Part shown: piece after piece, positions 1,268 to 46,815 of the stretch
Numbering within the stretch: the stretch's first letter is position 1
How the letters are laid out: each line of letters begins with the position of its first letter
IMG/VR virus record: IMGVR_UViG_3300025466_001444
DNA length: 64,000 nt
Source of the DNA: a virus
Lineage: Duplodnaviria; Heunggongvirae; Uroviricota; Caudoviricetes
Strand: one strand, 5' to 3'
Position numbers and translations under genes: made by a program
Notes under the pieces: model-generated
What the model was told of the DNA's origin: nothing
Seen by the model: only the letters and a program-made list of their open reading frames with translations
The model's database searches: none

Positions 1268-1269
1268 TG

Positions 1270-19560: not shown

Positions 19561-19796
19561 CTACTTTAGCGCCGTTATGAGCGGCGAGCGTCGTTTACTT
19601 TCGCCTATCCCCCAAACTCTTTCTTTTTCCTCCACAACCTATTTAGAACGGAACAATAAAGTCTTCTCCAACTGAAATCAATCTCTCTAAATTATTTATT
19701 TCAGTCTTCAATCTTTCTACGTCTTCATCATTCCATTCTGCTTCACTCAACTCTTTTCGTTTGGCTTTGAGTACATCGTATGTACGGGGAAAAGGT

Positions 19797-32876: not shown

Positions 32877-32883
32877 GGAAACC

Positions 32884-33894
32884 TCACTCTATAGTTTGGG
32901 CTTTCATATAAAGGTCACTAACTATTTTTTCTACTCTGTCTTTCATATCTGTATTTGCACTCATGCTAGTAAGATACTTTCTAAGAATAGTCATTGTGTC
33001 TTCTGCTTCGTTTATTATATCAGAATCTTCTTCTAGATACAAATTTAAATGGTCTTCAACTACCTGCAAGTCATGAACCCCACGCTTTTCAAGTTGATTA
33101 ATGAACATATCAAACTTATAAGGATCAATTCTGTTTTTAATAATAACTTTGATATGCCTTCCTGCATAAAAATCAAGATCAATTTTTTCTGGTTCATTTC
33201 CAAGAGTTATATCATCATACCAAATTTTTTGAAACATTGTATATGAGTTTTCAATAAATTCTAGTTCTCTCGTTTCTGTGTCAAATACATGAAAACCTTT
33301 TTTATCATTGTAGTCTGCCCAAGTAAATTCACACGGCGAACCAAGATAATGAATATTTCCTCTGCTACTACGATGATGGTAATGCCCACTACATACAGTA
33401 TCAAAACGATTGAAGATATTAGGGTCGTCACCATGAGACGGAGGAGCACCAACAAACATTGGGAAACCTGCAAGTTCCAAATGGCCAAAAAGAATTGGGC
33501 AACGTGTTTCATTAATAATCCTTAATGATTCTTCACGGTTCTCATCACAAATCCATGGTGTCAATAAAATATTAGTATTATTGAATGACCATGATACTGG
33601 TGTGTTATCCCACACTTTAAATGAAGGATATTGATGCACTACAAGTTCTTTCAATGAATTCACATTGTTCGTATTCTTATAGTAAGTATCATGATTGCCA
33701 GCAATGATATGAAAGTCTAAATCCCTTGAAGCAATTTTTTCAAGGAAATCTTCTCTCAATCTCTTAGCAGTGGCAATATTAATATATTTGCGGCGATCAA
33801 CAAGATCACCAAGATGGACAATAGATTTGATAGAGTGTCTATCAATATACGGAAAAAAGATTTCATCAAGAAAATCCTTCATGTTGTTAAGCAT
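32884..33894 (-). CDS. 47: gp47 Mre11/SbcD-like nuclease
   Basis: Metallophosphatase motifs VHLGDLVDRR, GNHD and GHLE/GH.H. Confidence 0.85.
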   Translation of the reverse strand: MLNNMKDFLDEIFFPYIDRHSIKSIVHLGDLVDRRKYINIATAKRLREDFLEKIASRDLDFHIIAGNHDTYYKNTNNVNSLKELVVHQYPSFKVWDNTPVSWSFNNTNILLTPWICDENREESLRIINETRCPILFGHLELAGFPMFVGAPPSHGDDPNIFNRFDTVCSGHYHHRSSRGNIHYLGSPCEFTWADYNDKKGFHVFDTETRELEFIENSYTMFQKIWYDDITLGNEPEKIDLDFYAGRHIKVIIKNRIDPYKFDMFINQLEKRGVHDLQVVEDHLNLYLEEDSDIINEAEDTMTILRKYLTSMSANTDMKDRVEKIVSDLYMKAQTIE

Positions 33895-34218
33895 AACAGG
33901 GGAGTCATTTTTAACTCCAAAAGTGGGTATCAGTTATAAGAGCAATACGTGTCACACTGAGTCTCCTTTCATTTTATATAACTAATGATTCATACGTTGT
34001 TTCTACCAATTCGTGAATAATTTGTTTTAGGACGGGTATCTTTAAAAACATTATTCTTTTGAGTATTACTATTATGCTTATTGATTGATGAGATACAATA
34101 GTCACGAATGGTCTCAAGCCTTACGAGATAATTCATTTTCTCATTTGGATGAGCGATAGGCGAATTAATTTTTTCAACAATATCTACCACACTTGGTGGA
34201 ACCATATGTATATTATCA

Positions 34219-34815
34219 TTATTCATAAAACTTCTCCACTCCAATTTTTTTATCTTTACGCTTTGTTGCTTTCTCTGATTGTTTTTTATCGTATGACTTG
34301 ACAAGATTTTTCATATAATCATTATCCAAATTGACAGTCACATTTTTTTCATCACCTATAGATTGTTCAGCCAGCATACCTTCAAAGTAAAAATTCTCCA
34401 AAGTCTTCTGTTTGATATACAGATGTTTCTTCTCTTTGTCAATACGCCTTAAGAAAGCATACCAAATAATCTGCGTAAAATATGCAAATGGATTTGTTGA
34501 TTTTTCAGGATTAAAATTATTTAAATAATTAACACAGTTCTCTAGTCCATCTGAAATCATTTCATCACGATACGTATAACTGATGAAGTTTGGTTTTAGA
34601 GAAAGACGAGTTGCAATTTTATAAAGACATTCGCCAATATAAGGAGGAATCCTTGGATGTTCTTCACCCTTTTCATCAGCTTCTGCACAATCACTTTTAT
34701 ATTGAATAATAGCTGTATAAAATTTCTTATTATCAATATAATGAATACTTACTTTTTTAACTTTTTCTTTACGAATTTCTTTTGCTAATTCTGGTACTTC
34801 TGGTACTTCTGTCAT
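34219..34815 (-). CDS. 55: late sigma factor gp55
   Basis: FAYFTQIIWYAFLRRIDKEKK region conserved with T4 gp55. 198 aa. Confidence 0.65.
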   Translation of the reverse strand: MTEVPEVPELAKEIRKEKVKKVSIHYIDNKKFYTAIIQYKSDCAEADEKGEEHPRIPPYIGECLYKIATRLSLKPNFISYTYRDEMISDGLENCVNYLNNFNPEKSTNPFAYFTQIIWYAFLRRIDKEKKHLYIKQKTLENFYFEGMLAEQSIGDEKNVTVNLDNDYMKNLVKSYDKKQSEKATKRKDKKIGVEKFYE

Positions 34816-34817
34816 TT

Positions 34818-36269
34818 TTAAATACTCGCATTGTAAATTTTGTAATCAAAACTTTCACTATTGTATATATTTAGACGTTCCATAAAATGTAATAATGTAA
34901 AATTCATTTTTGTTTTATGTTTTAAATCATCTGCAATATCATATACTACTACAGATGATTTTTCTGTTCCTATACGTAGTCCACGACCAATTGATTGTAA
35001 TGTTCTCACACGAGATTTGGTCGGAGAACTAAACACAACATTATGAAGATTGCGTATGTTAACACCAGTTGAGAATGTGCCGTAACTGGCAACAATGATA
35101 GCATTAGTTTCTTTTTCAACGATATGCCGTATTGCTTCACGTTCTTCTCCATCAATTCCTCCATGAATAAAAAATATAGGTCTATCTGGCTGTTTATCCT
35201 TCAACATATCAAATAACATCTTACCATGTTTTTCAACAAATTGAAAGAGAATAAGTGAGTTTCCTTCCAAAGAAAGTGACAAATTACGTAAAAATTTGTT
35301 TCTTGCTTGATGCCTTACAATAAAATCTACTTCATCTTGATATGACATGCTCTTGACGAGTTTTCTTTCCTCATCACTATATCCAAGAACAATTGCTTTA
35401 ATTTTAAGATCAGCAACATGATTTTTTTCCATCAATTCAGCAGTCGTTGTTACTTTATATACAGGACCAAACAATCCTTCTAAAACCATTTTGTTTGTTT
35501 GCGAACCATCTAAAGTACCAGTAAACCCAAAACGATATTTACAATTGCCCATCTTCTCCATAATTGATGTAAGAGATTTGGCTTTGAATAAATGTGCCTC
35601 GTCTCCTATGGCCACATCAAACTGTTCGAAATAGCTTTTAGGCAACTTGTATATAGATTGCCATGTTGAGATGGTAATTGGTTTATCTGTCTGTTTATCT
35701 TGACCCTCATAAATTCTATGGACGAACTTATCGGATATAAAACCATAATCAGCAAAGTCAGAGGCAAGTTGACTAACCAAAGAAGTAGTTGGAACAATAA
35801 TAAGAGTACGTGCATTATAATACCTCGTTAATAGATAGATAATTAATGATTTGCCGGAAGCAGTTGGTGATAAAAAAACGCCTCTGTCATACTTTATTGC
35901 ATGACGAAAGGCGTTTATTTGATAATCACGAGGAGTCAATGTTAACTCACAGTCGTTTAAAAATTCTTTTACCTCTGAATCATTGAATGTAGTTAAGTTT
36001 GGTTTACAGTTATCATCATATTCAACATCATAATTTCTAGAAGATGCAAATTCTGATACTTCTTTAATTAAGCCAAAATATAACAAAGCAGTCATTGTAT
36101 TATAAAGTTTTATTTTTCCATCCCAAAATTTATTGCGAACCGCAGGAATAAATTTAGCACCGGGTACTGTAAATGTAAAATTATCACAAAGTTCCTGTGC
36201 AACAGATGGTTCACATGTCACTCTAGCATAAACTTCATTTACTTTTGTAACGTATAACTTGTCACGCAC
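34818..36269 (-). CDS. uvsW: UvsW SF2 DNA helicase
   Basis: Helicase motif I PTASGKS, motif II DEAH, and a C-terminal helicase domain. Confidence 0.8.
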   Translation of the reverse strand: MRDKLYVTKVNEVYARVTCEPSVAQELCDNFTFTVPGAKFIPAVRNKFWDGKIKLYNTMTALLYFGLIKEVSEFASSRNYDVEYDDNCKPNLTTFNDSEVKEFLNDCELTLTPRDYQINAFRHAIKYDRGVFLSPTASGKSLIIYLLTRYYNARTLIIVPTTSLVSQLASDFADYGFISDKFVHRIYEGQDKQTDKPITISTWQSIYKLPKSYFEQFDVAIGDEAHLFKAKSLTSIMEKMGNCKYRFGFTGTLDGSQTNKMVLEGLFGPVYKVTTTAELMEKNHVADLKIKAIVLGYSDEERKLVKSMSYQDEVDFIVRHQARNKFLRNLSLSLEGNSLILFQFVEKHGKMLFDMLKDKQPDRPIFFIHGGIDGEEREAIRHIVEKETNAIIVASYGTFSTGVNIRNLHNVVFSSPTKSRVRTLQSIGRGLRIGTEKSSVVVYDIADDLKHKTKMNFTLLHFMERLNIYNSESFDYKIYNASI

Positions 36270-36696
36270 CTACTTTAAATTTTTCAAATTCAATTGCATT
36301 TTTAATTTGAAATCCTCTATCTTTAATTGATTTAATAATTGATTCAAGTACATCTACTTTTTCTTGCTGCATAGCAATTCTCAAATTAATATTAATAATA
36401 TCTTGATCAGCTTCTATATGCATAGGAACATCCGATTTCAATACATTTAATTGAAATGGTTGCCATCCATGTTCTTTTAAATCTTCTGGAGGCATTATAC
36501 CACGATAATAATCATATTTCAACTTAATAAATTGTTTACGATCTTGTTCTAGTTTCTTCAAAAGCATATTTTCATCTGAGAAAATACGAAGATACTTGCT
36601 ATGCATTTTAGGAAGCTTTAAACTTTCATTACCAAGTTCAGTACGATCAATATTACAATCTTCGTCCCACATATCATGAATATCATCAAGCTTCAT
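36262..36696 (-). CDS. uvsY: UvsY-like recombination mediator (by position and size)
   Basis: 144 aa ORF adjacent to uvsW as in T4. Confidence 0.45.
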   Translation of the reverse strand: MKLDDIHDMWDEDCNIDRTELGNESLKLPKMHSKYLRIFSDENMLLKKLEQDRKQFIKLKYDYYRGIMPPEDLKEHGWQPFQLNVLKSDVPMHIEADQDIININLRIAMQQEKVDVLESIIKSIKDRGFQIKNAIEFEKFKVGA

Positions 36697-36706
36697 AATA
36701 AAAATC

Positions 36707-37228
36707 CTATATTTTTGCTACCCTAAAAATTTTATATTTAAAACTAACTGTGTTGGTAACATAGTTCACATCCGAATCAGTTGAAGTGAAATTTATATCA
36801 CTTAATGAAACCGGAAACAAGTCTTCAAATGAAACTATGATATTTGGATTCATATTACTATTTAAAATAGTAAGAGTGGCATCAGAGTATAACCCATCTT
36901 TTGAACCGGGACTTACAGATTGAAGAGTTTTATATTGACCAAAATTTTCTGGAAATCCAAGACCAACTAACCAATTATAAACTTCCAAATAATTTTGAAA
37001 ATCTTCGTCTACTTTAAATGTAACTTGAAGATCGCCATAGTCTAATCTATTTCCGGCTATTTCAAGAACTTTAAATGGCGTTGGCGATTGGATAAATCCA
37101 AGTGCTAAGGAAGGAATATTAACGTCAGTGACAAAGAAATCCAAATTTGGAGCCCGTGCCAAAGTAAATTTAAATCCTAATGGAGAAAGAAAATTTATGT
37201 TATTTGGTTGAGTTGTTAAAAGAGGCAT
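36707..37228 (-). CDS. hypothetical protein (173 aa; baseplate gp25-position)
   Basis: ORF. Confidence 0.4.
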   Translation of the reverse strand: MPLLTTQPNNINFLSPLGFKFTLARAPNLDFFVTDVNIPSLALGFIQSPTPFKVLEIAGNRLDYGDLQVTFKVDEDFQNYLEVYNWLVGLGFPENFGQYKTLQSVSPGSKDGLYSDATLTILNSNMNPNIIVSFEDLFPVSLSDINFTSTDSDVNYVTNTVSFKYKIFRVAKI

Positions 37229-37265
37229 AGCATATAATCCTTGTTTATATGCTATTTATCTTCAA

Positions 37266-37610
37266 TCAATCATCGAAATAATGACCTTTTCTATACCTAT
37301 TTTCTTTGATGAATTCGTCGGCATAAGGACGATACATATAATATTGAAGAACTCTTGCCAACGCATTTGAGGTTTCTTCATTATCATACACATCTTGATA
37401 TTCATAATCTTCAAGTGGACTTGACTTTGATACCAATCGAGCAATTTCTTCTTGACAAGAGATGTATGCCTTCTTCAAATCTTCAACAATAATCTTGCTT
37501 ACAAGCTCGTCATCAATTTCCAGATTCATCTTCAATCTCCTGTTTCCAATAGCGGCAATAAAAATGCTTTCCACAAGCATCGATTTCTTTTTGAGGATAT
37601 CCTTGTTCAA
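37266..37610 (-). CDS. hypothetical protein (114 aa)
   Basis: ORF. Confidence 0.4.
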   Translation of the reverse strand: MNKDILKKKSMLVESIFIAAIGNRRLKMNLEIDDELVSKIIVEDLKKAYISCQEEIARLVSKSSPLEDYEYQDVYDNEETSNALARVLQYYMYRPYADEFIKENRYRKGHYFDD

Positions 37611-37726
37611 CTAACCATTCAAGATTTCTGCCCTCTGCATCTTCTGTCAAAGGCTTAGGAAACCCATATTTCCAACCAGAAGGCGGGTCAATCATCATAA
37701 CTTCCTTCTTCATAACAAACCTTTCT

Positions 37727-37933
37727 TTACGATAAAACTTGCCATCCCTTATAAGTTTCCATCCATGCTACTATACACTCTTCTTCGAGAATGTCAAGTG
37801 GCTCTGTTCGATCTGGTTGTCTTTCAATCCATTGTTCCCAATAAATATCGAGAACATCAAACTCTGTAATTTGAATAGTAACTTCTTCATTGTTACCATC
37901 AATTTCTTTGAAACAGTACGACCTATAACTCAT
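37727..37933 (-). CDS. hypothetical protein (68 aa)
   Basis: ORF. Confidence 0.4.
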   Translation of the reverse strand: MSYRSYCFKEIDGNNEEVTIQITEFDVLDIYWEQWIERQPDRTEPLDILEEECIVAWMETYKGWQVLS

Positions 37934-37942
37934 TAGTAAACT

Positions 37943-38344
37943 TCATTCTGTTACGATCCTTTTCCATTCATCATTAATCTTCAACCAAAGATGTCCATCC
38001 TTGCCAACAGACATAGCAACCCTCGTTTCAGAGTCAAAGTTCATATCTGCTTCTACCTCCATGCCTTTACCAATAGTCAATTTGTTATTGAATTTATTGT
38101 CTAAAGATGATACGTAATGATTAACATATTCTTTTGGAATAGTGAATGATCCTCTTTCAAGAAGAGGCGCAAATGTAAATGGATCACGGGGCGTAACAAG
38201 CGGTGGAGTACTATGAGCAGTAAGTGTCATTAATGCTTTATCAGGAGCCATTGATGCTGGGGGAGCTTTTGCCATAGCCTCCGCAGCCATCAACATACCA
38301 ACTGGAGCAGCTGGTAAAAAAGAAAAAAACTTACGCCTATCCAT
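37943..38344 (-). CDS. secreted protein with twin-arginine (Tat) signal peptide
   Basis: MDRRKFFSFLPAAPVGMLMAAEAMAKAP contains the RRxFF motif, an h-region and an AxA cleavage site. Confidence 0.55.
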   Translation of the reverse strand: MDRRKFFSFLPAAPVGMLMAAEAMAKAPPASMAPDKALMTLTAHSTPPLVTPRDPFTFAPLLERGSFTIPKEYVNHYVSSLDNKFNNKLTIGKGMEVEADMNFDSETRVAMSVGKDGHLWLKINDEWKRIVTE

Positions 38345-38345
38345 T

Positions 38346-39530
38346 TTACTTTACCACAGTCTTTGGTACAAGATTAATAAGTGCATCAATCATACCGGGA
38401 GTTACAACAATTGGCAATCCCTTGTTAGCCAAACCAGCACCAAGACCATTTTGAACATTGAGTTGTGCAATTGACTCAAGAGTACTCATAATAGATGCAA
38501 GTTTTTCTGCTTCAAACTTACGATTAATTGCAACTTGAATTTCCTTATCGAAAGTAAAAGTATCAGCCCATCCGACAAAATTAATAGTGATTCCAAGCTT
38601 ACCAAAATAATCTTTAGCATTCTTCTCAATAGTATCCATCATTGGAATGTAGTCAGCATTGGCTTGATCGAATGTGCGACGACCAACTTCACCGCACACC
38701 ATAGTCTGAATCTTCTTACGACCAACATCATCCATAATATCAGTCAGGCTACGCCCATAGTAAACAGAAGTGAAGATGACAACAGGATCAATAGACTTTC
38801 CAGAAGGAGGAATTACACCAAAGTTATAAAGAAACTTTGCAGCATTATCTTCCGATACAGAAGCACCAATAGAAACACCAGCTGTAATATTCAAACCTTC
38901 TTTAGTCTGACAAGGAAAAGACTCATCCCTTGAAGATGTTCCACGATGTGTACCAGCAACCCATTCACGGCTATAAGGTGTACGATCAACAATATAGAGA
39001 CGACCAGTAGGAATATAGAAATCCCAACCAAGATATCCACCAGAGTTAGAAAGTTTCTGATGAGGAACTACGAAACGCTTCGATGCAATCTTGCGTTCAT
39101 TGTAGTAAGACTCACTTTCAAATTGAGCCTGACTTTCCTTGTTAGCACCAACATCTGGAACCCAGAAAGCTGACTGATTAGGAAGGATAGTATATGCCTC
39201 AGTCTTATCTGTCGTATCAGCATATGCCCATGCTTGATCAGGGTTAATAAGGAAAAGTGCGATAGCAAAAGTAGATGCCGCAATAATCCACTGCTTCATT
39301 GGCTTAAACCAGATGACGGCAAGAGTAAAGAAAAGAATAGGTCCAAGCATAAAATTTACCCCATCAAAAAGAAAAAAAATGTACATGGACTTTACATATG
39401 CCATGTCACTGTTTGCAAACTGATCACCAGCTGTGCTACCCAAAATCAATGTTGAAATTGGATTATACAACTTAGTAATGAAACCATACACTACAAGAGA
39501 TACGAATGTCAAGACAATACGAGCAATCAT
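38346..39530 (-). CDS. membrane protein with SPFH/band-7-like domain
   Basis: Multiple N-terminal transmembrane segments. The C-terminal domain has a prohibitin-like pattern. Confidence 0.45.
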   Translation of the reverse strand: MIARIVLTFVSLVVYGFITKLYNPISTLILGSTAGDQFANSDMAYVKSMYIFFLFDGVNFMLGPILFFTLAVIWFKPMKQWIIAASTFAIALFLINPDQAWAYADTTDKTEAYTILPNQSAFWVPDVGANKESQAQFESESYYNERKIASKRFVVPHQKLSNSGGYLGWDFYIPTGRLYIVDRTPYSREWVAGTHRGTSSRDESFPCQTKEGLNITAGVSIGASVSEDNAAKFLYNFGVIPPSGKSIDPVVIFTSVYYGRSLTDIMDDVGRKKIQTMVCGEVGRRTFDQANADYIPMMDTIEKNAKDYFGKLGITINFVGWADTFTFDKEIQVAINRKFEAEKLASIMSTLESIAQLNVQNGLGAGLANKGLPIVVTPGMIDALINLVPKTVVK

Positions 39531-39904
39531 TCTGTTTCTTCCTCAATTTCTAGTGGACCAGAAAACCATGTTTCTGTATCATCGCAAACCCAACCTTCAC
39601 CTTCAAGACCTTCATCATATTCTTCTTCATATGCTTCTTGAAGACGTTCTTGTTCTTCTTCATCCATGTCATCAGGAAATTCCCAATCAGACCAACAGCC
39701 ATCTTCTTGCTCTTGATCAATCACATCACCAAGTTCATAGATATTTACTTCTTCATCATCTTCATCAATCTCTGGCTTCTCAGCATAGCGAGCATATCCC
39801 CAACGCCAACCAATGCTATAGATAATGGTTTTGCCATCTTTTGTCCAGAACTGTTTTTCAGTGATAGACTTCTTATACTTTGTTGAAACTTTCCATGTTG
39901 TCAT
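39527..39904 (-). CDS. highly acidic protein (125 aa)
   Basis: Asp/Glu-rich C-terminal half. Confidence 0.45.
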   Translation of the reverse strand: MTTWKVSTKYKKSITEKQFWTKDGKTIIYSIGWRWGYARYAEKPEIDEDDEEVNIYELGDVIDQEQEDGCWSDWEFPDDMDEEEQERLQEAYEEEYDEGLEGEGWVCDDTETWFSGPLEIEEETE

Positions 39905-39921
39905 TTTAAACTCCTAGTTTA

Positions 39922-40515
39922 TCACGCTACTTCTTTTGTAATTTCATGTGTTTTTTTTCCTGTCGCAGAAAACCCATGTGTTTCTTCTAAAAATATTCTA
40001 TAATCAACTGCTTCTTCAAATGTATCAAAAAATTTCCAATAACATTTTTTATTAGTTATTAATTGGGCTCTCCATTTTTTTCGTCTTGAATCAAACCACA
40101 CACCAACAACACCACTTTTATTTTTTCTTGAAATAGAAATGTTTCTATTATTTTCAATTTGTGTTACTGATCTTAAATTTATAGGTCTATTATCTAAACC
40201 ATTTCCATTAATATGATCAATATATATTGGTTCATATCCATAATATATTTTAAAAATTACTCTATGTGAATAAATCATTTTGTTTTTAAACATAATAATG
40301 TGGTATTGTTTATTTGTACCATTTTTTTTAAAATTATCTTTGATAGACCCAGCTTTTTTATTAGCTAATTTTGCATTCCACGTTACATGCGCTTTATGAT
40401 TTGGAAAATATTTTCTATCACGTTCTTTCCAATAGAGAATGCCGTTTTCAATATCTAATATAAATAAATCATTTAAAATTTCAAGTGAAGGCAATTCATT
40501 TGGTTTAAATGGCAT
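39922..40515 (-). CDS. HNH homing endonuclease with AP2-like DNA-binding domain
   Basis: IDHINGNGLDNRPINLRSVTQIENN (HNH_3) and SGVVGVWFDSRRKKWRAQL (AP2-like). Confidence 0.7.
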   Translation of the reverse strand: MPFKPNELPSLEILNDLFILDIENGILYWKERDRKYFPNHKAHVTWNAKLANKKAGSIKDNFKKNGTNKQYHIIMFKNKMIYSHRVIFKIYYGYEPIYIDHINGNGLDNRPINLRSVTQIENNRNISISRKNKSGVVGVWFDSRRKKWRAQLITNKKCYWKFFDTFEEAVDYRIFLEETHGFSATGKKTHEITKEVA

Positions 40516-40516
40516 A

Positions 40517-40912
40517 TCAAAAAGTCTTCCACTCGTATTCTGAATTGCGAGTCCTGAACTTCATATAGTCCTCACGCTCTTCAAGAATCTCTAATACGGG
40601 GCTAGTCTGCCACCAGTCTTGTGAGTCATAGGTTCTCCCATAGAAAGAACCAACACGAATACCGCACCCAATACGGGGACGGTTCTCACCTTCGATAAAT
40701 TGATAATTTTCTGGATCAAGTATCTGGCACATGGGTCCAGAATCCCCAGCGCCATCATGCAAACGTACCAATGAATATCTCACATTACTCTCTCTACTTT
40801 CAGCTAGTAGTTTCTTTGACTTGTATCCTACCATCTTACCACTCTGGTCCTGTTGTTTTTTCTGTACGCTCATAGATATAGCTAAAGTCAACACCATATG
40901 CAGGAACAACAA
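40517..40912 (-). CDS. hypothetical protein (131 aa)
   Basis: ORF. Confidence 0.4.
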   Translation of the reverse strand: MLFLHMVLTLAISMSVQKKQQDQSGKMVGYKSKKLLAESRESNVRYSLVRLHDGAGDSGPMCQILDPENYQFIEGENRPRIGCGIRVGSFYGRTYDSQDWWQTSPVLEILEEREDYMKFRTRNSEYEWKTF

Positions 40913-41240
40913 GAAGCTTCTGAGGCATATTGTTTAAATCCCGTTCACCAAGAACCCCACTAATAAATAATGTATCAGGAAACTTATCTGGTGTCAAGTG
41001 ACGAAGAATGTTAGCTTGCATATCACATTTTTTTGTGAGACGTTCAATCTCATTTTCTCTATTAGCAATTGTCTGCTTCATTTCCATGATGCCAGCTTCA
41101 AGTCGCTTAATTGTATTCTTAGCAATTAACCAACGATCATAATACATATCTGCTTCATCATCAGTCATTCTTACCTCCCAGCCATCATCATCATTTGTAG
41201 ATAGCATACCTTGCGTTTGAATGTACGTTCCTTGTTCCAT
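40836..41240 (-). CDS. hypothetical coiled-coil protein (134 aa)
   Basis: ORF. Confidence 0.4.
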   Translation of the reverse strand: MEQGTYIQTQGMLSTNDDDGWEVRMTDDEADMYYDRWLIAKNTIKRLEAGIMEMKQTIANRENEIERLTKKCDMQANILRHLTPDKFPDTLFISGVLGERDLNNMPQKLLVVPAYGVDFSYIYERTEKTTGPEW

Positions 41241-41563
41241 TCATAGATGAGAAGCTTGGGACGTTCTTTATTTGTCTTTTCAAACTTGATTTCCAACTCT
41301 GGAGGAAGAAGAATGCCCAAGTGACGAAGTGTCCTATGAGCATTTAATTCCAAACCAGCCATAAGCTTCTTATCATACCAACATCTAGCCAATACAGCAC
41401 CAAGATAGTCCATAACCTTTTCTTTGATATTTTCTGCATCAATGATGGTTTCTACTGGTGGTTCACGATGAAAATCATCATTATGATAATTGTTTTGAAT
41501 TGGTTCAGCAGACCCATGAACTATCATGTTACGATTATAGACAAGTGCAGGAAGTTTAGTCAT
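41171..41563 (-). CDS. hypothetical protein (130 aa); weak NHase-alpha/NHLP-like segment
   Basis: ARCWYDKKLMAGLELNAHRTLRHLGI resembles the nitrile hydratase alpha N-terminal region. Weak call. Confidence 0.35.
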   Translation of the reverse strand: MTKLPALVYNRNMIVHGSAEPIQNNYHNDDFHREPPVETIIDAENIKEKVMDYLGAVLARCWYDKKLMAGLELNAHRTLRHLGILLPPELEIKFEKTNKERPKLLIYEWNKERTFKRKVCYLQMMMMAGR

Positions 41564-41564
41564 T

Positions 41565-42062
41565 TTATAGACCCTTCATGATATCTTCGATTGCGATAGG
41601 TGTGTAATCACGAACCTCAACACAACAATTTACATGTCGTTCTGTAGGAGATTTTTTTTGATGAATGTGCCCATGAAGATTGTATTTAACTTTAGTCATT
41701 CCACTTTCATGCATAGGAATATGAGTAAGAACGCAATCAAACTCAGGGAACCACCGCAGTAACATAACTTTTTGAAAATTTTTCGTGATATGATTGCTTT
41801 TAGGATTATCATGATTGCCTAACACCAATCTTTTACGACCCTTTAGAAAAGGCAAGACTTGATATCCTTTACCAAAGAACACATCACCTAGATGATAAAC
41901 AATATCATTATCTTTGACGGTCTTGTTCCAGTTGTCAATCATAAGTGCATCCATTTCGTCCACATCTGCAAATGAACGAACAACATTACGATGCTCGTCT
42001 GTGAAAGTCAAGATGTTTTCATGACCAAAATGAGTGTCACTAATGATAAAAATGTCTCTCAT
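41565..42062 (-). CDS. calcineurin-like metallophosphoesterase
   Basis: ISDTHFGH, GNHD and GHIH motifs. Confidence 0.75.
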   Translation of the reverse strand: MRDIFIISDTHFGHENILTFTDEHRNVVRSFADVDEMDALMIDNWNKTVKDNDIVYHLGDVFFGKGYQVLPFLKGRKRLVLGNHDNPKSNHITKNFQKVMLLRWFPEFDCVLTHIPMHESGMTKVKYNLHGHIHQKKSPTERHVNCCVEVRDYTPIAIEDIMKGL

Positions 42063-42361
42063 TCTCGTTTTTCTCCAAAGAAGTTTTCATACTCTTCGTC
42101 TTTCATCAGTTCATTGCAGAACATCCATAGATCACCGTCTTGATACAATCTCCATAGATTGTTATTGTTATCTGTGAGAGTTGCGTCATCCAATACATCA
42201 CTCCATGCATCCCAATATTCAGGATGATTTGGACCTTCCTTAACAATATCCAAGGCATCTGAATTTACCAGAAACCAATTATCCGCATATTTTTCTGCAA
42301 ATGTTTGAGGAATGAAAATACCCTGATTATCACCAATCAAAAGCAAGAGACCTTTAGACAT
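42059..42361 (-). CDS. hypothetical protein (100 aa)
   Basis: ORF. Confidence 0.4.
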   Translation of the reverse strand: MSKGLLLLIGDNQGIFIPQTFAEKYADNWFLVNSDALDIVKEGPNHPEYWDAWSDVLDDATLTDNNNNLWRLYQDGDLWMFCNELMKDEEYENFFGEKRE

Positions 42362-42464
42362 TGGTATTCTCCGTATAGTGAAGGAAAGCTAAACCGATTG
42401 CCATGCCAATAACCATACAAATCAACGGTCCAAAGATGATAAGGCAAGTAGTAGTGTCCATGAT

Positions 42465-42923
42465 TCAGACTCCTTCATAAAGCTTGTTGGGCGACTTGTC
42501 CAACGTGTTCCACATCTTCTTTGTATCAGAACTACCGTAGATGTCAACAAATTCTTTCAAGCGACCGTAAAAAATCTCCTTAAAAGCAATTTGATAGTCA
42601 TCTTCATTGATGCGTTCATATTCAACCTTAGATGCACGAATAATCAATTGGCTATTCGTAACGGCAGAAGTCAACTCGTAATGGTATTCCAAATCACTAT
42701 GAGCATCTATAGATGGTGTGAGATAGATATCACCCCCATTTTTCTTATTCGCTGCGACAAAAGCAGCTGAAAAGTCATCAGCCTCATATCTATCCAATCC
42801 CCATGAAATAGGAATTGCTTTGGTCAAGTACTCAGATGCACCTTCTGGGTATCCATCCCAATGTTTATAGACGGCAAAAGTGTTAAGATCGTCCTTAAAT
42901 GTGAAAACTGCACGAGTACCCAT
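42465..42923 (-). CDS. hypothetical protein (152 aa)
   Basis: ORF. Confidence 0.45.
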   Translation of the reverse strand: MGTRAVFTFKDDLNTFAVYKHWDGYPEGASEYLTKAIPISWGLDRYEADDFSAAFVAANKKNGGDIYLTPSIDAHSDLEYHYELTSAVTNSQLIIRASKVEYERINEDDYQIAFKEIFYGRLKEFVDIYGSSDTKKMWNTLDKSPNKLYEGV

Positions 42924-42937
42924 GATACATTCTCCTT

Positions 42938-43156
42938 TTAGATGAAGATTCCGTTTTCATAGCGTTCTTCGTCAGAAAACTTGTATTTTGCTTCCTTACG
43001 AAGGATTTCTAATGCCTCGATTTTATTTTTCTCGTTGTTTGTATCCAAAACATACATCATTTCGAGCATGTAGTCAACCACAGTCCAGCTGACACGCAAC
43101 ATCGCATCAAGGTAAAATTCCATATTAAGCATGGTATTCTCCCTCAAAGGTAACAA
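42938..43156 (-). CDS. hypothetical protein (72 aa)
   Basis: ORF. Confidence 0.4.
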   Translation of the reverse strand: MLPLRENTMLNMEFYLDAMLRVSWTVVDYMLEMMYVLDTNNEKNKIEALEILRKEAKYKFSDEERYENGIFI

Positions 43157-43425
43157 ACACGAGTGTTATCTGTGTTGTCAAATAATTCTTCATGTGTGGG
43201 TTGAAAATAATCGCTGTGATTAATTCCAGCTGTATGCCCAGCCGGAACTTCCTTTTCACTAAGGTATCGGAAACCTTTGTAGTTGCCAGTCTGCATAAGA
43301 ACGTCTTCAAGGATGACAATCATCGACTTGCGACCTTCTGGATTGATAACAGAGCCAGCAAGCATCTTGTTGATGGATTGTTTAAATTCTTCGACATTGA
43401 AGGTTTTGCGCTTGGACATGACCAT
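43144..43425 (-). CDS. hypothetical protein (93 aa)
   Basis: ORF preceded by the conserved upstream element. Confidence 0.45.
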   Translation of the reverse strand: MVMSKRKTFNVEEFKQSINKMLAGSVINPEGRKSMIVILEDVLMQTGNYKGFRYLSEKEVPAGHTAGINHSDYFQPTHEELFDNTDNTRVCYL

Positions 43426-43452
43426 CTCCGTTGTTGATGATTCATATTAGCA

Positions 43453-43482
43453 TAAAAAAAGGGGGCGTCAACCCCCTTTTTA
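43453..43482. terminator. intrinsic terminator gggggcgtcaaccccc flanked by A-run and T-run (bidirectional)
   Basis: Perfect 5-bp G/C stem with aaaaaaa upstream and ttttt downstream. Confidence 0.65.
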
Positions 43483-43492
43483 AATTATTTTA

Positions 43493-43759
43493 TTAGCCAG
43501 TCTGCTTCTGCATGGCCAGATACTGATAACCAGCAGCAATGACAGCACGAGAAGGCTTGCCAAGCTCATACTTGAGAGTAGTTCCCTTAGTGGTCTTATG
43601 CTTACGAAGATAAATTGGGAACCCCTTCATACGAAGGTCAGAGATTGTAGCACGGGGATTGGCAACTCCAAAACGAGCCTTGATCTGACGCTTGGTAAGC
43701 TGATCACCAGCCGTGAGAGCAATGATGACACGATCCATCTTGGTAATGTTGTAATTCAT
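43493..43759 (-). CDS. putative small DNA-binding protein (88 aa)
   Basis: Basic, HTH-like RQIKARFGVANPRATISDLRMKG. Confidence 0.4.
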   Translation of the reverse strand: MNYNITKMDRVIIALTAGDQLTKRQIKARFGVANPRATISDLRMKGFPIYLRKHKTTKGTTLKYELGKPSRAVIAAGYQYLAMQKQTG

Positions 43760-43864
43760 AATGTAACCCTTCTTTCACTGATTGCTACACACCTCATGTG
43801 TGTATGGAGGCATATTAGACCCATCAAAAAAGAATGTCAACACCTATTTTAAACTTTTTTTGGC

Positions 43865-43892
43865 TTGACATCATTTTTTTTATCTATATAAT
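43865..43892 (+). promoter_or_regulatory. sigma70-consensus promoter (TTGACA-16nt-TATAAT)
   Basis: ttgaca at 43865..43870 and tataat at 43887..43892. RBS GGAG before the ATG at 43925. Confidence 0.6.
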
Positions 43893-43924
43893 AGGTATTG
43901 TGATATTGAAATTGGAGATTACAT

Positions 43925-44278
43925 ATGGATATCAAAACCAAATATGACATTGGATATACCTATTGGGTTCCTCGTGTTCATAAGATTTTTGATCGTACAG
44001 AAACTCTTCGTCATGAAGGTGAAGAATGGACCCGTGATATATACGAAATGAAAGCTTTTGCCAAGAAAAAAGTTGTACGTTGTATGGATATTAAAGTTCA
44101 TCGTGACCATTCATATTCTGTTATGTATGGTGTAGAAAATGTTACCGATTCTGGTACAAGCATGTTTCAATATTATCCAGAAGCAAATATCCCAGATAGT
44201 TATGATGAAGAAACCGCTCAAGCTTTTGCTGAATCTTTTATGAAAGATAATCCAAACGAAGAATATTTTGGAAATTAG
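43925..44278 (+). CDS. hypothetical protein (117 aa)
   Basis: Plus-strand ORF with a promoter and RBS. Confidence 0.55.
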   Translation: MDIKTKYDIGYTYWVPRVHKIFDRTETLRHEGEEWTRDIYEMKAFAKKKVVRCMDIKVHRDHSYSVMYGVENVTDSGTSMFQYYPEANIPDSYDEETAQAFAESFMKDNPNEEYFGN

Positions 44279-44281
44279 TGC

Positions 44282-44310
44282 TTGACACCATATATTGGTA
44301 TGATATGGTC
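44282..44310 (+). promoter_or_regulatory. sigma70-like promoter (TTGACA-17nt-TATGGT)
   Basis: ttgaca at 44282..44287, then tatggt. RBS GGAGG before the ATG at 44335. Confidence 0.45.
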
Positions 44311-44334
44311 TTTATATGAACAACGGAGGTTCAC

Positions 44335-44583
44335 ATGGCTAGGTTGTATATCGATTTTCATGATGCTGTCATCAACCGTATGGTTGTTGCTTCTGACTTC
44401 AAACTGAATCAGTTCATCACATGGAATGGTGATAACTATTTTTGTGTATACGAATTTAGTAATAATCAACAAGTTTTTCAAGTGGATCGCTTCACCATTA
44501 AAAATGGTTGTCATCAGTATGATGCTATTGACCATGGTAAACAGTATTTTCATGATACTCATAACTTTCGGGTGTCAGCATGA
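44335..44583 (+). CDS. hypothetical protein (82 aa)
   Basis: Plus-strand ORF. Confidence 0.5.
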   Translation: MARLYIDFHDAVINRMVVASDFKLNQFITWNGDNYFCVYEFSNNQQVFQVDRFTIKNGCHQYDAIDHGKQYFHDTHNFRVSA

Positions 44584-44891
44584 TTACCAAATATAAAGTC
44601 GAATACGGCTATTGGTTTCTTGATAAATCTCAAACTTTGGATTTTGAAAAGAAGTTTGAGATTTTTTCTTCTATAAAAGAAGCAAAGAAATTTGTAGAGA
44701 AAATCTCTGCAAAGAAAAATCATGGAAGCAAAATTAATATAGTTGAAATATACGAAAATGATGTTCCTCCTCCTGTGAAAAAGGAAGAGGTCATTATTGA
44801 TATTCCCGTAACTCAATATAAAGAAATACGTAATCCCAATAGGTTTTTACATACTCATGTTCTGAGTGGTGATACCTTTTATATTATCTAA
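44580..44891 (+). CDS. hypothetical protein (103 aa)
   Basis: ATGA overlap with the upstream ORF. Confidence 0.5.
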   Translation: MITKYKVEYGYWFLDKSQTLDFEKKFEIFSSIKEAKKFVEKISAKKNHGSKINIVEIYENDVPPPVKKEEVIIDIPVTQYKEIRNPNRFLHTHVLSGDTFYII

Positions 44892-45330
44892 GGAGAATAG
44901 TTATATGGTTAAGAAACTTGTGATGTTGGAAGCACTTTCTCAATACCGGATGAGATATGTTTTTGAGGTAGAAGATGATATTGATCATGCGTGTGATGAA
45001 TATATAATGCAAGAAAGTGAAGCTAATTTGAAAGAATTTAGTCAACTTCATCTTGAGCCAACTATCATTTTGTCTCATCGTGAAATTACGAAGGAAGATT
45101 ATCTTCGTATGTTTGATGAAGATAATCATTATCTAAAGTCATGGGATGATGAAAATAAAATGACTTTTGTTAATGTTATTAATTATTCAAAGGATGTTGA
45201 TGAGGTTCCCCAACCTCTTGCGTCATACTATGGAGAAGGAGTAGAAGATGCTCTTTGGAGTATTTTAAAAAATGAATATGGGCCAATAACTGCAGACCAA
45301 CTTGATAAAATTATCAAGGATATGAAATAA
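44866..45330 (+). CDS. hypothetical protein (154 aa)
   Basis: Plus-strand ORF followed by terminators. Confidence 0.5.
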   Translation: MVIPFILSKENSYMVKKLVMLEALSQYRMRYVFEVEDDIDHACDEYIMQESEANLKEFSQLHLEPTIILSHREITKEDYLRMFDEDNHYLKSWDDENKMTFVNVINYSKDVDEVPQPLASYYGEGVEDALWSILKNEYGPITADQLDKIIKDMK

Positions 45331-45358
45331 AAAAAGGGGAGCATCTCTGCTCCCCTTA
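45329..45358 (-). terminator. intrinsic terminator (ggggagcatctctgctcccc) for minus-strand gp23 transcript
   Basis: On the minus strand the hairpin is followed by a 7-nt T-run. Confidence 0.55.
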
Positions 45359-45386
45359 AGTTTGCGGCTTGAAACCGTCTTGTATT

Positions 45387-45417
45387 GCCCCGCCTTTGAA
45401 TCAGCGGGGTTTTTATT
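45387..45417 (+). terminator. intrinsic terminator (ccccgcctttgaatcagcgggg + ttttta) for plus-strand cluster
   Basis: 6-bp G/C stem plus a T-run. Confidence 0.55.
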
Positions 45418-46768: not shown

Positions 46769-46815
46769 TTAATTTCTCCTTTAGGAAAGTTATTTGTAAT
46801 ATTATTTATAATTTT

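What the first reader, a model, noticed from the sequence alone, without database searches (positions are those of the whole stretch)
37943..39530. Phage-encoded Tat-signal secreted protein next to an SPFH-like multi-pass membrane protein
ORF 37943..38344 begins MDRRKFFSFLPAAPVGMLMAAEAMAKAP, a twin-arginine signal with an AxA site, which is unusual for a T4-like phage protein. Its local GC is elevated. Immediately upstream on the transcript is a 394-aa protein with N-terminal transmembrane helices and a prohibitin/band-7-like domain. A periplasm-targeted protein plus a membrane scaffold could act in superinfection exclusion, lysis timing or host envelope remodelling.
Basis: partly seen in the sequence, partly recalled or inferred. 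Interest (0 to 1): 0.5.

Follow-up and report, generated by a model that had tools for sequence, protein, structure and literature searches.

The report
Tat-leader phage protein beside periplasmic SPFH
An uncultured T4-like phage carries a small protein with a conserved twin-arginine (Tat) export leader, from a family never described before, next to a membrane-scaffold (SPFH) protein whose scaffold domain most likely faces the periplasm; the pair recurs in some related phages but each gene also occurs alone, and what they do is unknown.

Summary
ORF 37943-38344(-) encodes a 133-aa protein starting MDRRKFF..AMA|K. ORF 38346-39530(-) encodes a 394-aa protein with three N-terminal hydrophobic segments and a genuine SPFH fold (Pfam Band_7 above cutoff; Foldseek hits only SPFH structures).

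New findings:
- The small protein founds an undescribed family (84 representatives at 50% identity) found only on uncultured T4-like phage contigs. 186 of 196 complete members have the RR leader, which is under peptide-level purifying selection.
- The SPFH domain is most likely periplasmic. Short homologs have Sec leaders directly before it, and two cysteines are invariant.
- The SPFH gene family is a stand-alone chromosomal gene in many Alphaproteobacteria.
- The pairing is facultative. All 15 loci that hold both genes have SPFH->Tat gene directly adjacent, even where the cassette is inverted relative to uvsW/uvsY. But 28 Tat-only and 33 phage plus 80 bacterial SPFH-only loci exist.
- No T4-type late promoter lies in the surrounding 15 kb, which suggests early or middle expression.
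- The GC bump reflects Ala/Pro/Arg codons.

Function (superinfection exclusion, lysis control or similar) remains inference. There is no homology to NfeD, Sp, RI or Imm. I rate it a new variant of a known kind, of moderate interest.

The parts
37943..38344 (-). TAT133: 133-aa small protein, founding member of an undescribed family from uncultured T4-like phages (Tat-type leader, variable linker, small C-terminal beta domain)
   Evidence: ORF; 126 close homologs; 84 representatives by profile search; no Pfam, PHROG or PDB match
38270..38344 (-). Twin-arginine leader, residues 1-25: MDRRKFFSFLPAAPVGMLMAAEAMA, with predicted signal-peptidase site AMA|K
   Evidence: Rule-based test; RR in 186/196 members; Tat HMMs are the only multi-member hits; c-region basic residue in 68/75; synonymous variation at all conserved degenerate codons
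38198..38269 (-). Conserved post-leader segment, residues 26-49 (KAPPASMAPDKALMTLTAH + Pro run); P34 is invariant across the wide family
   Evidence: Alignments A1 and A3; 90% mean identity among close relatives, with synonymous variation
38045..38197 (-). Hypervariable, indel-rich, predicted disordered middle (residues 50-100); a mosaic recombination junction lies here in relatives
   Evidence: A1; identity 0.67 against 0.91 in the flanks; low pLDDT; L074/L075 breakpoint
37946..38044 (-). C-terminal small beta domain (residues 101-133), ending in the family signature VGKDGHLWLKINDEWKRIVTE
   Evidence: Invariant columns in A1 and A3; AF2 strands 109-113, 119-123 and 126-130 lie here (two further strands, 88-91 and 95-98, lie just upstream) at pLDDT about 74
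38346..39530 (-). SPFH394: 394-aa membrane protein with an SPFH/Band-7 fold
   Evidence: Pfam PF01145 29 bits, above the 23.6 cutoff; Foldseek PDB top hits all SPFH, E to 2.8e-9; viral SPFH proteins in BFVD
39243..39530 (-). N-terminal membrane region of SPFH394 (residues 1-96): three hydrophobic segments, the last resembling a Sec signal (KPMKQWIIAASTFAIALFLINPDQAWA|YA)
   Evidence: Hydropathy; AF2 helices 2-36, 42-73, 75-93; short-form homologs replace this region with a classical Sec leader
38496..39209 (-). SPFH core domain (residues 108-345), inferred periplasmic, with invariant C207 and C279
   Evidence: Pfam match at 168-345; pLDDT 80-95; 2.6-2.8 A rmsd to the mouse stomatin SPFH domain; exactly two invariant Cys
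38345..38348 (-). Gene junction: SPFH stop TAA (38346-38348) plus a 1-nt spacer before the TAT133 ATG; suggests translational coupling
   Evidence: Sequence; the same tight junction in all 15 paired loci
39527..39904 (-). Upstream acidic 125-aa ORF overlapping the SPFH start by 4 nt; not a conserved partner
   Evidence: a 125-aa ORF of unconfirmed relationship occupies the slot after HNH in L074, separated from SPFH by a 415-aa methyltransferase-like gene
39922..40515 (-). HNH (+AP2) homing-endonuclease-like gene at the edge of the variable interval, GC 0.256
   Evidence: Pfam and PHROG; GC; relatives have 1-2 copies at this site

Best explanation
This is a facultative two-gene envelope cassette in the early/middle replication-recombination block of an uncultured T4-like myovirus.

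Gene 1 (SPFH394) is a divergent SPFH/Band-7 scaffold that phages took from a stand-alone bacterial gene family found mainly in Alphaproteobacteria. It is anchored in the inner membrane by three N-terminal segments and exposes its SPFH domain, long helix and probable disulfide to the periplasm, the topology of HflK/C. There it presumably oligomerises on the outer face of the inner membrane.

Gene 2 (TAT133) is translated from the same transcript, starting 1 nt after the SPFH stop. It is targeted by its twin-arginine leader to the host Tat translocase and probably cleaved at AMA|K. That releases a protein of about 108 residues made of a conserved short N-terminal motif, a proline-rich, hypervariable and disordered linker, and a small conserved C-terminal beta domain that acts in the periplasm.

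Shown: the two folds or leaders, family-wide conservation of the leader, the periplasmic orientation (by homolog leaders and cysteines), the recurrent adjacency, and the lack of late promoters. Inferred: actual Tat export and cleavage, physical cooperation of the two proteins, and the biological role. I take that role to be most likely modification of the infected cell's envelope early in infection (superinfection exclusion or protection, in the manner of T4 Sp/Imm), and less likely control of lysis timing (in the manner of T4 RI).
For: - Leader: RRKFF, a 16-residue uncharged run, AMA|K and weak hydrophobicity. RR is present in 186/196 members. Tat-leader HMMs are the only recurrent curated hits. 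68/75 have a c-region basic residue, and the runs are Ala/Gly/Pro-rich.
- Selection: synonymous variation at every conserved degenerate codon in residues 1-49 shows selection on the peptide.
- SPFH fold: Pfam and Foldseek, stomatin/prohibitin/flotillin/HflKC/QmcA at probability 1.00.
- Periplasmic orientation: short homologs carry classical Sec leaders immediately before the conserved domain. Two invariant Cys are usually the only Cys. K76 and K79 lie between TM2 and TM3.
- Cassette: in 15/15 loci with both genes they are adjacent, on the same strand, in the same order. This includes the L038-type lineage, where the cassette is inverted relative to uvsW/uvsY/tube and the Tat protein is only 35-41% identical to the window's. 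L074-76 keep the pair.
- Timing: TATAAATA is enriched (18 vs 7.7) and strand-biased, but absent on the coding strand from 31558 to 46802. gp55-like sigma and gp23 are present. Distant family members also lie among early/DNA-metabolism genes.
- Origin of SPFH: 80 bacterial loci with median GC 0.64 and no conserved neighbour.
Against: - The window's own leader does not reach the curated Tat HMMs. No dedicated predictor (SignalP/TatP) was available.
- The host is unknown, so the presence of TatABC is unverified.
- It is unclear why a largely disordered small protein would need Tat.
- Most Tat-family loci (28) lack SPFH, and most SPFH loci (33 phage, 80 bacterial) lack the Tat gene.
- Within the short-form group, Tat alleles are shuffled relative to SPFH alleles, and a recombination junction lies inside the Tat gene. 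Adjacency could therefore reflect a shared insertion hotspot.
- There is no homology to any characterised exclusion or lysis protein. The TAT133 model is low-confidence (pLDDT 56) and has no fold match.
- The timing inference rests only on the absence of one motif.
Confidence: 0.55

Rival explanations
1. The two genes are functionally independent. TAT133 is a stand-alone small Tat-exported phage protein, and the SPFH gene is an unrelated accessory gene that repeatedly lands in, or is lost from, the slot upstream because that slot is a recombination or homing-endonuclease hotspot.
For: - 28 Tat-only loci, including L009, a near relative (UvsY 96% identical) that covers the whole syntenic interval and has other genes in the SPFH slot.
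- Distant Tat-family genes sit in T4-like DNA-metabolism clusters without SPFH.
- 33 phage and 80 bacterial SPFH loci lack the Tat gene.
- HNH genes flank the interval.
- A mosaic junction lies inside the Tat gene, and alleles are discordant.
Against: Whenever both genes are present they are never separated or reordered (15/15). This holds after inversion of the cassette relative to core genes and across 60% SPFH and 35-41% Tat identity. The junctions are tight or overlapping. Both products are predicted to reach the same compartment.
Confidence: 0.35
2. The RR leader is not cleaved. It acts as a Tat-inserted N-in/C-out signal anchor (as in Rieske proteins), tethering the protein to the inner membrane, with the proline-rich linker projecting the C-terminal domain into the periplasm.
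For: - The leader is as conserved as the C-terminal domain and far more conserved than the middle among close relatives (0.91 vs 0.67), which is unusual for a disposable signal peptide.
- Six family members hit the PetC Rieske Tat-anchor model.
- A proline-rich spacer follows the leader.
Against: The uncharged run is short (16 residues in the window, mean 18) and contains two prolines and a glycine. KD19 peaks at 1.42, below the usual TM threshold. An AxA-type motif followed by a basic residue is conserved family-wide. Across the wide family the h-region sequence is not conserved.
Confidence: 0.25
3. TAT133 is a functional analogue of the NfeD-type operon partner of prokaryotic SPFH proteins: a small beta domain that docks on or inside the SPFH assembly, delivered by Tat because this SPFH assembly is periplasmic.
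For: The gene order and tight junction are the same as in E. coli qmcA->ybbJ (4-nt overlap). The only folded part of TAT133 is a small beta domain. A QmcA-YbbJ complex structure is among the SPFH fold hits (8z5g).
Against: No NfeD Pfam hit in 61 members at E<=1. hhalign against YbbJ gives probability 0.16%. No fold match. Bacterial members of this SPFH family have no such partner. Most Tat-family genes have no SPFH neighbour.
Confidence: 0.12
4. The pair, or TAT133 alone, controls lysis timing: a periplasmic antiholin or holin-modulating factor analogous to T4 RI.
For: T4 RI is a small, exported periplasmic protein with a cleavable signal peptide that binds the holin's periplasmic domain (PMC8385771 abstract). 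TAT133 has a comparable size and compartment.
Against: No homology to RI or other lysis proteins. No holin or endolysin was identified next to the pair. No late promoter is nearby. The only candidate lysis-type ORF seen (a lipobox protein at 6656-6886) is 31 kb away.
Confidence: 0.12
5. The N-terminus is not an export signal at all. The protein is cytoplasmic or a virion component, and the RR motif is incidental or is a capsid-targeting or propeptide sequence.
For: The window's copy is not recognised by curated Tat HMMs. Small T4 internal proteins do have conserved cleavable N-termini (general knowledge).
Against: The full Tat pattern (RR-x-F-F/L, uncharged Ala/Gly-rich run, AxA, basic c-region) is conserved across the family while the h-region sequence diverges. 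No L/I-x-E protease motif is consistently present. There is no late promoter.
Confidence: 0.05

Closest known systems
Bacterial Tat signal peptides (TIGR01409 / PF10518; Rieske and formate-dehydrogenase-type leaders)
   Same: N-region RR-x-F-F/L motif, weakly hydrophobic Ala/Gly/Pro-rich h-region of 16-18 residues, AxA site with a basic residue in the c-region. Several family members reach the curated models.
   Different: The leader sits on a small phage protein with no cofactor domain and a largely disordered passenger. The window copy is below the models' thresholds. Export is untested.
HflK/HflC (E. coli periplasm-facing SPFH cage around FtsH)
   Same: SPFH fold followed by a long helix, an N-terminal membrane anchor, and an SPFH domain on the periplasmic side.
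   Different: Not an ortholog: no NCBIfam HflK/HflC hit and only 10-13% identity in structural alignments. It has three N-terminal TM segments (or a Sec leader in short forms), two invariant cysteines, a single gene rather than a K/C pair, and no evidence of an FtsH link.
Virus-encoded SPFH/Band-7 proteins (Bacillus phage G gp65, Rhizobium phage Pasto, RaK2-like jumbo phages, giant viruses)
   Same: SPFH-fold proteins carried by viruses, with function unknown (PMC7760394).
   Different: This subfamily is shared with Alphaproteobacterial chromosomes at 40-60% identity. It is inferred to be periplasm-facing, and in some T4-like phages it is coupled to a Tat-leader gene.
SPFH-NfeD operons (E. coli qmcA-ybbJ)
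   Same: An SPFH gene followed by a tightly coupled small partner gene whose soluble part is a small beta domain.
   Different: No sequence or profile similarity to NfeD. QmcA is reported to face the cytoplasm (general knowledge), whereas this SPFH domain is inferred to be periplasmic. The partner is Tat-targeted instead of multi-TM. The partnership is facultative.
T4 small exported early/immunity proteins: Sp (spackle), Imm, and antiholin RI
   Same: Small phage proteins with N-terminal export signals that act in the periplasm or inner membrane. In T4 these are encoded among early or replication genes (general knowledge; RI: PMC8385771 abstract).
   Different: No homology. Sp and RI use Sec-type leaders, while this family uses a Tat-type leader. 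The architecture also differs (disordered linker plus small beta domain).

Membership tests
Tat (twin-arginine) signal peptide | Consensus (S/T)-R-R-x-F-L-K-like motif with paired arginines near the N-terminus | tested here: met
   D-R-R-K-F-F at residues 2-7. RR within the first 15 residues in 186/196 family members.
Tat (twin-arginine) signal peptide | Uncharged, only moderately hydrophobic h-region of at least about 13 residues after RR | tested here: met
   16-residue run; KD19 max 1.42 and KD13 1.69. Family mean run is 18.2 residues, with 27% Ala, 10.5% Gly and 12% Leu.
Tat (twin-arginine) signal peptide | AxA-type signal peptidase site with a basic 'Sec-avoidance' residue in or after the c-region | tested here: met
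   A23-M-A25|K26. A basic residue lies within 6 residues after the run in 68/75 representatives. This is a pattern match only; cleavage is untested.
Tat (twin-arginine) signal peptide | Recognition by curated models (PF10518, TIGR01409) | tested here: inconclusive
   The window copy has no hit at E<=1. Among 61 relatives: formate_TAT 9, TIGR01409 7, TM_PetC 6, PF10518 3, all weak E-values, but these are the only multi-member hits apart from two of marginal significance (PSI_PsaJ 3, AtzH-like 2).
Tat (twin-arginine) signal peptide | Export that depends on TatABC and on the RR pair | not testable with these tools
   Needs reporter fusions in wild type vs tat mutants. The host, and therefore its Tat system, is unknown.
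SPFH / Band 7 superfamily | Match to PF01145 above the gathering threshold | tested here: met
   29.0 bits vs 23.6, residues 168-345. Precomputed PF01145 on many homologs.
SPFH / Band 7 superfamily | SPFH alpha/beta fold followed by a long helix | tested here: met
   AF2 pLDDT 80-95 over the core, helix 329-370. Foldseek: stomatin, prohibitin, flotillin, HflK/C, QmcA and vault, E to 2.8e-9; 2.6-2.8 A rmsd to the stomatin SPFH domain.
SPFH / Band 7 superfamily | N-terminal membrane anchor | tested here: met
   Hydrophobic segments at about 3-20, 48-75 and 80-96; AF2 helices.
SPFH / Band 7 superfamily | Assembly into large oligomeric rings or cages | not testable with these tools
   Only single-chain prediction was available.
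HflK / HflC | Orthology to HflK or HflC (curated equivalog models) | tested here: not met
   No NCBIfam family at E<=0.1 for the window protein, a short form, or a bacterial homolog. No sequence hit to PDB HflK/C.
HflK / HflC | SPFH domain on the periplasmic side of the inner membrane | tested here: inconclusive
   Inferred from Sec leaders of short-form homologs, two invariant Cys and the positive-inside pattern. There was no topology predictor or experiment.
HflK / HflC | Complex with FtsH | not testable with these tools
   No data.
NfeD (SPFH operon partner) | NfeD C-terminal OB-fold domain (PF01957) | tested here: not met
   No PF01957 hit in 61 members at E<=1. hhalign A3 vs E. coli YbbJ gives probability 0.16%. 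No fold match, though the model is low-confidence.
NfeD (SPFH operon partner) | Encoded next to, and co-transcribed with, an SPFH gene | tested here: inconclusive
   Adjacent in 15/15 loci that hold both genes, but 28 Tat-only, 33 phage and 80 bacterial SPFH-only loci exist.
T4 Sp / Imm / RI (small exported phage proteins) | Sequence homology to these families | tested here: not met
   No PHROG hit for the window protein or 61 relatives. No tblastn hit in 50,697 phage records.

The most novel reading that the evidence does not exclude
The Tat-leader proteins are a previously unrecognised class of early periplasmic effectors in T4-like phages that depend on the host Tat pathway. Their hypervariable middle would be a specificity determinant under diversifying selection, and in some phages they would dock onto a phage-borne, periplasm-facing SPFH cage. 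Together these would form a new kind of envelope-level superinfection-exclusion or lysis-control system.
Probability: 0.15. Interest if true: 0.75.

Novelty: new variant of a known kind. Interest (0 to 1): 0.5.

Why it matters
Small exported phage proteins such as T4 Sp, Imm and RI decide whether an infected cell admits a second phage and when it lyses. Outside coliphages almost none are known. This work defines a sizeable, previously unannotated family of such candidates in environmental T4-like phages. They are the first found here with a Tat-type leader, which would mean these phages exploit the host's folded-protein export route.

It also shows that a phage-borne SPFH scaffold, a protein type long seen in jumbo and giant viruses without explanation, most likely faces the periplasm. 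That scaffold sometimes travels as a unit with the Tat-leader gene, which gives a concrete partner and compartment to test. The predictions are cheap to check with leader fusions, topology reporters and complex prediction.

Tried and rejected
- **Near-DNA search** of the region against deposited phages: no match. The phage has no close cultured relative.
- **GC bump as a sign of foreign origin**: rejected. It is confined to the Ala/Pro/Arg-rich leader codons.
- **DNA- or RNA-level explanation** for the invariant N-terminus (overlapping gene or structure): rejected because synonymous sites vary at every conserved degenerate codon.
- **Fold assignment for TAT133**: the AF2 model is poor (pLDDT 56) and the Foldseek PDB search is meaningless (best E 3.4). 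A profile search against PDB sequences gave only a spurious 18.6-bit hit.
- **The two large profile hits** P0253 and P0289 are unrelated repeat proteins.
- **NfeD homology**: rejected.
- **Defence-system models (PADLOC)**: nothing credible.
- **HflK/HflC orthology**: rejected.
- **Upstream acidic 125-aa ORF as the SPFH partner**: rejected, because its tblastn query found no homolog beside SPFH in any of the 44 SPFH-anchored viral loci and a different gene (MT415) lies directly upstream of SPFH in L074-76.
- **Conserved bacterial operon partner for the SPFH family**: none found. The flotillin-like neighbour in Nitrospirillum is unique.
- **Tat family in bacterial genomes**: none found with close-family patterns. 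The wide-family alignment could not be used for that scan.
- **Single-sequence locus search for SPFH**: failed and was repeated with an alignment.
- **NJ tree of SPFH proteins**: placed L074 oddly despite 71% identity to the window protein, so I do not rely on it beyond 'paired genes are not one tight clade'.
- **Sigma-70-like sites and terminators**: not enriched over shuffles and not used.
Full report
**1. What is there**

Both ORFs exist on the minus strand, in a run of tightly packed same-strand genes.
- The 133-aa ORF (37943-38344, here TAT133) starts at the first start codon after an in-frame stop. Its ATG lies one nucleotide after the TAA of the 394-aa ORF (38346-39530, here SPFH394). 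The junction reads TAA-A-ATG.
- An acidic 125-aa ORF overlaps the SPFH394 start by 4 nt, and an HNH/AP2 endonuclease gene lies upstream of that.
- The context is T4-like: UvsW, UvsY, a tail-tube-like protein, a gp55-type late sigma factor, SbcD-like gp47 and a gp23-type major head protein.
- The phage has no close cultured relative. There is no megablast hit for the region, and its UvsW is at most 56% identical to any deposited phage; Methylophilales phage Melnitz and cyanomyoviruses are nearest.

**2. The Tat-type leader is real and is a family trait**

In the window protein:
- RRKFF sits at residues 3-7.
- A 16-residue uncharged run follows, containing two Pro and one Gly.
- A-M-A at 23-25 is followed by K26.
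- The hydrophobic peak is weak, with KD19 of 1.42.

Pfam, PHROGs and NCBIfam do not recognise the protein. It has 126 close metagenomic homologs. A profile search of 1.84 billion cluster representatives finds 84 at E<=1e-3, nearly all 73-137 aa and matching in two stretches, the N-terminus and the C-terminus.

Across the family:
- 186 of 196 complete-looking members carry RR within the first 15 residues, and 185 pass a TatFind-style rule. Most exceptions are gene calls that start at an internal Met or too far upstream.
- Among 75 non-redundant representatives the uncharged run averages 18 residues (27% Ala, 10.5% Gly, 7.7% Pro, 12% Leu). 68 have a basic residue within six residues after it, which is the Tat c-region pattern.
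- When 61 diverse members are scanned one by one, the only curated models that hit several of them are Tat-leader models, apart from two of marginal significance (PSI_PsaJ 3, AtzH-like 2): formate_TAT 9, TIGR01409 7, the PetC Rieske Tat anchor 6 and PF10518 3. These hits are individually weak, and the window copy itself is not hit.
- Across the wide family the h-region sequence diverges while the RR-x-F-F/L motif, a Pro and the AxA-basic pattern persist. This is how a signal peptide evolves.
- Among close relatives, residues 1-49 are about 90% identical, yet every conserved degenerate codon uses more than one synonymous codon (mean 3.0 for residues 1-27 and 2.58 for residues 28-49). The constraint is therefore on the peptide, not on DNA or RNA.
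- TAT133 is the only credible Tat-type leader among the window's ORFs.

**3. Architecture of TAT133**

- After the leader comes a conserved short segment (..APPASMAPDKALMTLTAH, with P34 invariant family-wide) and a proline run.
- Next is an indel-rich hypervariable middle.
- The protein ends in an invariant C-terminus..VAMSVGKDGHLWLKINDEWKRIVTE.
- AlphaFold with the family alignment gives pLDDT 56 overall. Only a small C-terminal beta sheet reaches about 74 and the rest looks disordered.
- Neither the model nor the family profile matches any solved structure.
- There is no PHROG for any of 61 members. There is no tblastn hit in 50,697 phage records for three divergent members. No close relative occurs in 185,579 species-representative genomes, and I found nothing in the literature library.
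- Distant members lie on T4-like contigs among DNA-metabolism genes: SbcCD, dCMP deaminase, MazG, DNA polymerase B, UvsX and T4_Y07B.

**4. SPFH394 is a genuine SPFH protein and most likely faces the periplasm**

- Pfam Band_7 scores 29 bits against a 23.6 cutoff. There is no sequence-level hit to PDB chains.
- The AlphaFold model (pLDDT 75.5 overall, core 80-95, long helix 329-370) matches only SPFH structures. These are stomatin, prohibitin, flotillin, HflK/C, QmcA and vault, with E down to 2.8e-9 and 2.6-2.8 A rmsd over the stomatin SPFH core.
- It also matches many virus-encoded Band-7 proteins. It is 28% identical to Bacillus phage G gp65.
- It is not an HflK/HflC ortholog.

Topology:
- The window protein has hydrophobic segments at about 3-20, 48-75 and 80-96. 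K76 and K79 lie between the last two. The last segment reads like a Sec signal, KPMKQWIIAASTFAIALFLINPDQAWA|YA.
- Short-form homologs (331-337 aa) replace the first two segments entirely. They begin with a classical Sec leader (..SQTSAFA|FADTTDKTEAYTILPNQSAFWVPD..) directly before the conserved domain.
- The family has two invariant cysteines, and 22 of 26 aligned members have no other cysteine. That is the signature of a structural disulfide in an exported domain.
- I therefore infer an HflK/C-like orientation. No topology predictor or coordinates were available to confirm it.

**5. Origin of SPFH394**

- The family, including the N-terminal membrane region, occurs at 40-60% identity in 80 bacterial genome loci. 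These are mainly Acetobacteraceae, Rhodospirillales and Beijerinckiaceae, and include isolates (Nitrospirillum iridis, Bradyrhizobium sp. Tv2a-2) and Mb-scale contigs. Median GC is 0.64.
- No neighbour family recurs in more than 6 of the 80 loci, apart from opposite-strand shadow ORFs, and the contexts are ordinary chromosomal genes.
- The simplest reading is that phages acquired a stand-alone bacterial envelope gene.

**6. Are the two genes a unit?**

Evidence that the pairing is not obligate:
- In Tat-anchored loci (28 viral contigs with close homologs), none has an SPFH gene in the fetched DNA (up to 10 kb each side where the contig allows).
- L009, whose UvsY is 96% identical to the window's, spans the whole syntenic interval. 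It has a small TM protein and a 415-aa methyltransferase-like gene where SPFH394 sits.
- In SPFH-anchored loci (44 viral contigs), 33 have other downstream genes, for example a C1 papain-like peptidase or a Sec-leader HNH-like protein.

Evidence that the pairing recurs:
- In the other 11 SPFH-anchored loci the next gene, with overlapping or abutting stop and start, is a 93-103 aa short-form Tat-family member. Examples are MNRRSLFGALALSPLMAVAAFA|KE.. and MNRRSFFAFLPVAPLALVAEGARA|A.., ending ..WLKxKxGxWKRIVTE.
- Three further contigs, with SPFH 71% identical to the window's, keep the long-form pair.
- A profile-HMM census over all fetched loci gives 15 of 15 loci with both genes directly adjacent, same strand, SPFH first. 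No locus has the two genes apart.
- In the short-form lineage the cassette points away from uvsW/uvsY/tube, whereas in the window it points toward them. The pair has therefore moved as a unit.

Evidence of allele shuffling:
- SPFH and Tat divergences correlate overall (Spearman 0.76), but within groups the alleles are shuffled. L044 and L045 have SPFH 92% and Tat 48% identical; L040 and L044 have 80% and 86%.
- L074 and L075 are 100% identical in DNA through SPFH and the first ~90 nt of the Tat gene. They diverge in its middle and are unrelated after its stop. A mosaic junction therefore lies inside the Tat gene.

I read this as a facultative cassette. The association is too regular to be random placement in a scrambled region, but neither gene needs the other.

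**7. Timing**

- The T4 late-promoter core TATAAATA occurs 18 times against 7.7 expected. 17 of these are on the coding strand, mostly just upstream of ORFs, including the major head gene.
- None lies on that strand between 31558 and 46802, the block that holds gp46/47, gp55, uvsW, uvsY and the pair.
- This suggests early or middle transcription, though it is an inference from the absence of a motif. Sigma-70-like and terminator-like sites are not enriched.

**8. Comparison with known systems**

- The arrangement resembles the E. coli qmcA-ybbJ (SPFH-NfeD) operon in gene order and coupling. TAT133 has no detectable NfeD similarity.
- In size, export and gene neighbourhood the Tat family resembles T4 Sp, Imm and RI. 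RI has a cleavable signal peptide and acts in the periplasm (PMC8385771 abstract). There is no homology, and those proteins use Sec-type leaders.
- Phage SPFH proteins are on record with function unknown (PMC7760394).
- No anti-phage defence model matches.

**9. Verdict**

- The 'elevated GC' is a codon-composition effect.
- The joint-function idea is partly supported by the inferred shared compartment and the recurrent tight adjacency, and weakened by the many solo occurrences.
- The specific role is unproven. I favour an early envelope-modifying role (exclusion or protection) over lysis timing.
- Novelty: an undescribed Tat-leader family in T4-like phages, and a periplasm-facing phage SPFH that sometimes travels with it. 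This is a new variant of known kinds (small exported phage proteins; viral SPFH proteins) and not a new category.
- Interest is moderate (0.5). It gives clean, cheap experiments, but nothing yet points to an unprecedented mechanism.

Noticed in passing
window 579-19613 (minus strand): Eight tRNA genes (Trp, Ser, Gly, Thr, Asn, Lys, Pro, Met), all on the coding strand and scattered among ORFs.
   Followed up: no
window, 18 sites; e.g. 46803-46810 upstream of the major head gene 45416-46768: The T4-type late-promoter core TATAAATA is enriched (18 vs 7.7 expected), and 17/18 copies are on the coding strand. A gp55-like late sigma factor is encoded at 34219-34815. A 15-kb block (31558-46802) has none on that strand.
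   Followed up: partly
window 6656-6886 (-): A 76-aa ORF starting MIKLLTISLIAVSLAGC.., a lipobox-type leader. It could be an o-spanin or a small lipoprotein. No PHROG match.
   Followed up: partly
window 39922-40515 (-): An HNH+AP2 endonuclease gene with GC 0.256, far below the window mean of 0.35. Relatives L010 and L011 carry two tandem copies at the same site, suggesting a homing-endonuclease hotspot at the edge of the variable interval.
   Followed up: partly
L074 vs L075, about 3660-3972 (L074 coordinates): Two contigs are 100% identical in DNA up to ~90 nt into the Tat-family gene, diverge in its middle and are unrelated after its stop. A mosaic recombination junction lies inside the gene.
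   Followed up: yes
L007 11040-11576: A phage ORF of 178 aa with a Sec leader and an outer-membrane beta-barrel-like sequence, about 650 nt downstream of the TAT133 homolog.
   Followed up: no
L030-L035, L061 (about 13-45 nt after the SPFH stop); L037, L049, L058: In other phages the SPFH gene is followed by a C1 papain-like peptidase (263-272 aa) or by a 152-aa Sec-leader protein with an HNH-like motif. The SPFH gene thus tends to sit next to other exported or enzyme genes.
   Followed up: no
L038/L046/L048, about 7451-7800: In the short-form cassette lineage the Tat-family gene is followed by a 115-116 aa protein with a Sec leader (MKKLLIAGMLLITTPVLA|DKP..). Other loci have a conserved 83-105 aa protein with the motif RRWNKQWALDKSIEWCKHINE.
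   Followed up: no
L106 (Nitrospirillum iridis) 6356-8335: The bacterial SPFH394 homolog is directly followed by a second, 659-aa Band_7 protein and preceded by an OprO/P-type porin. This neighbour is unique among 80 bacterial loci.
   Followed up: yes
L077 6470-9203: A ribonucleotide reductase large subunit interrupted by an intein region and a GIY-YIG endonuclease gene, in a phage contig carrying an SPFH homolog.
   Followed up: no
window 40517-41240 (-): ORFs 40517-40912 and 40836-41240 overlap by 77 nt. Their homologs in L009 and L010 appear as split tblastn pieces. Local GC is the highest in the neighbourhood, at about 0.43.
   Followed up: no
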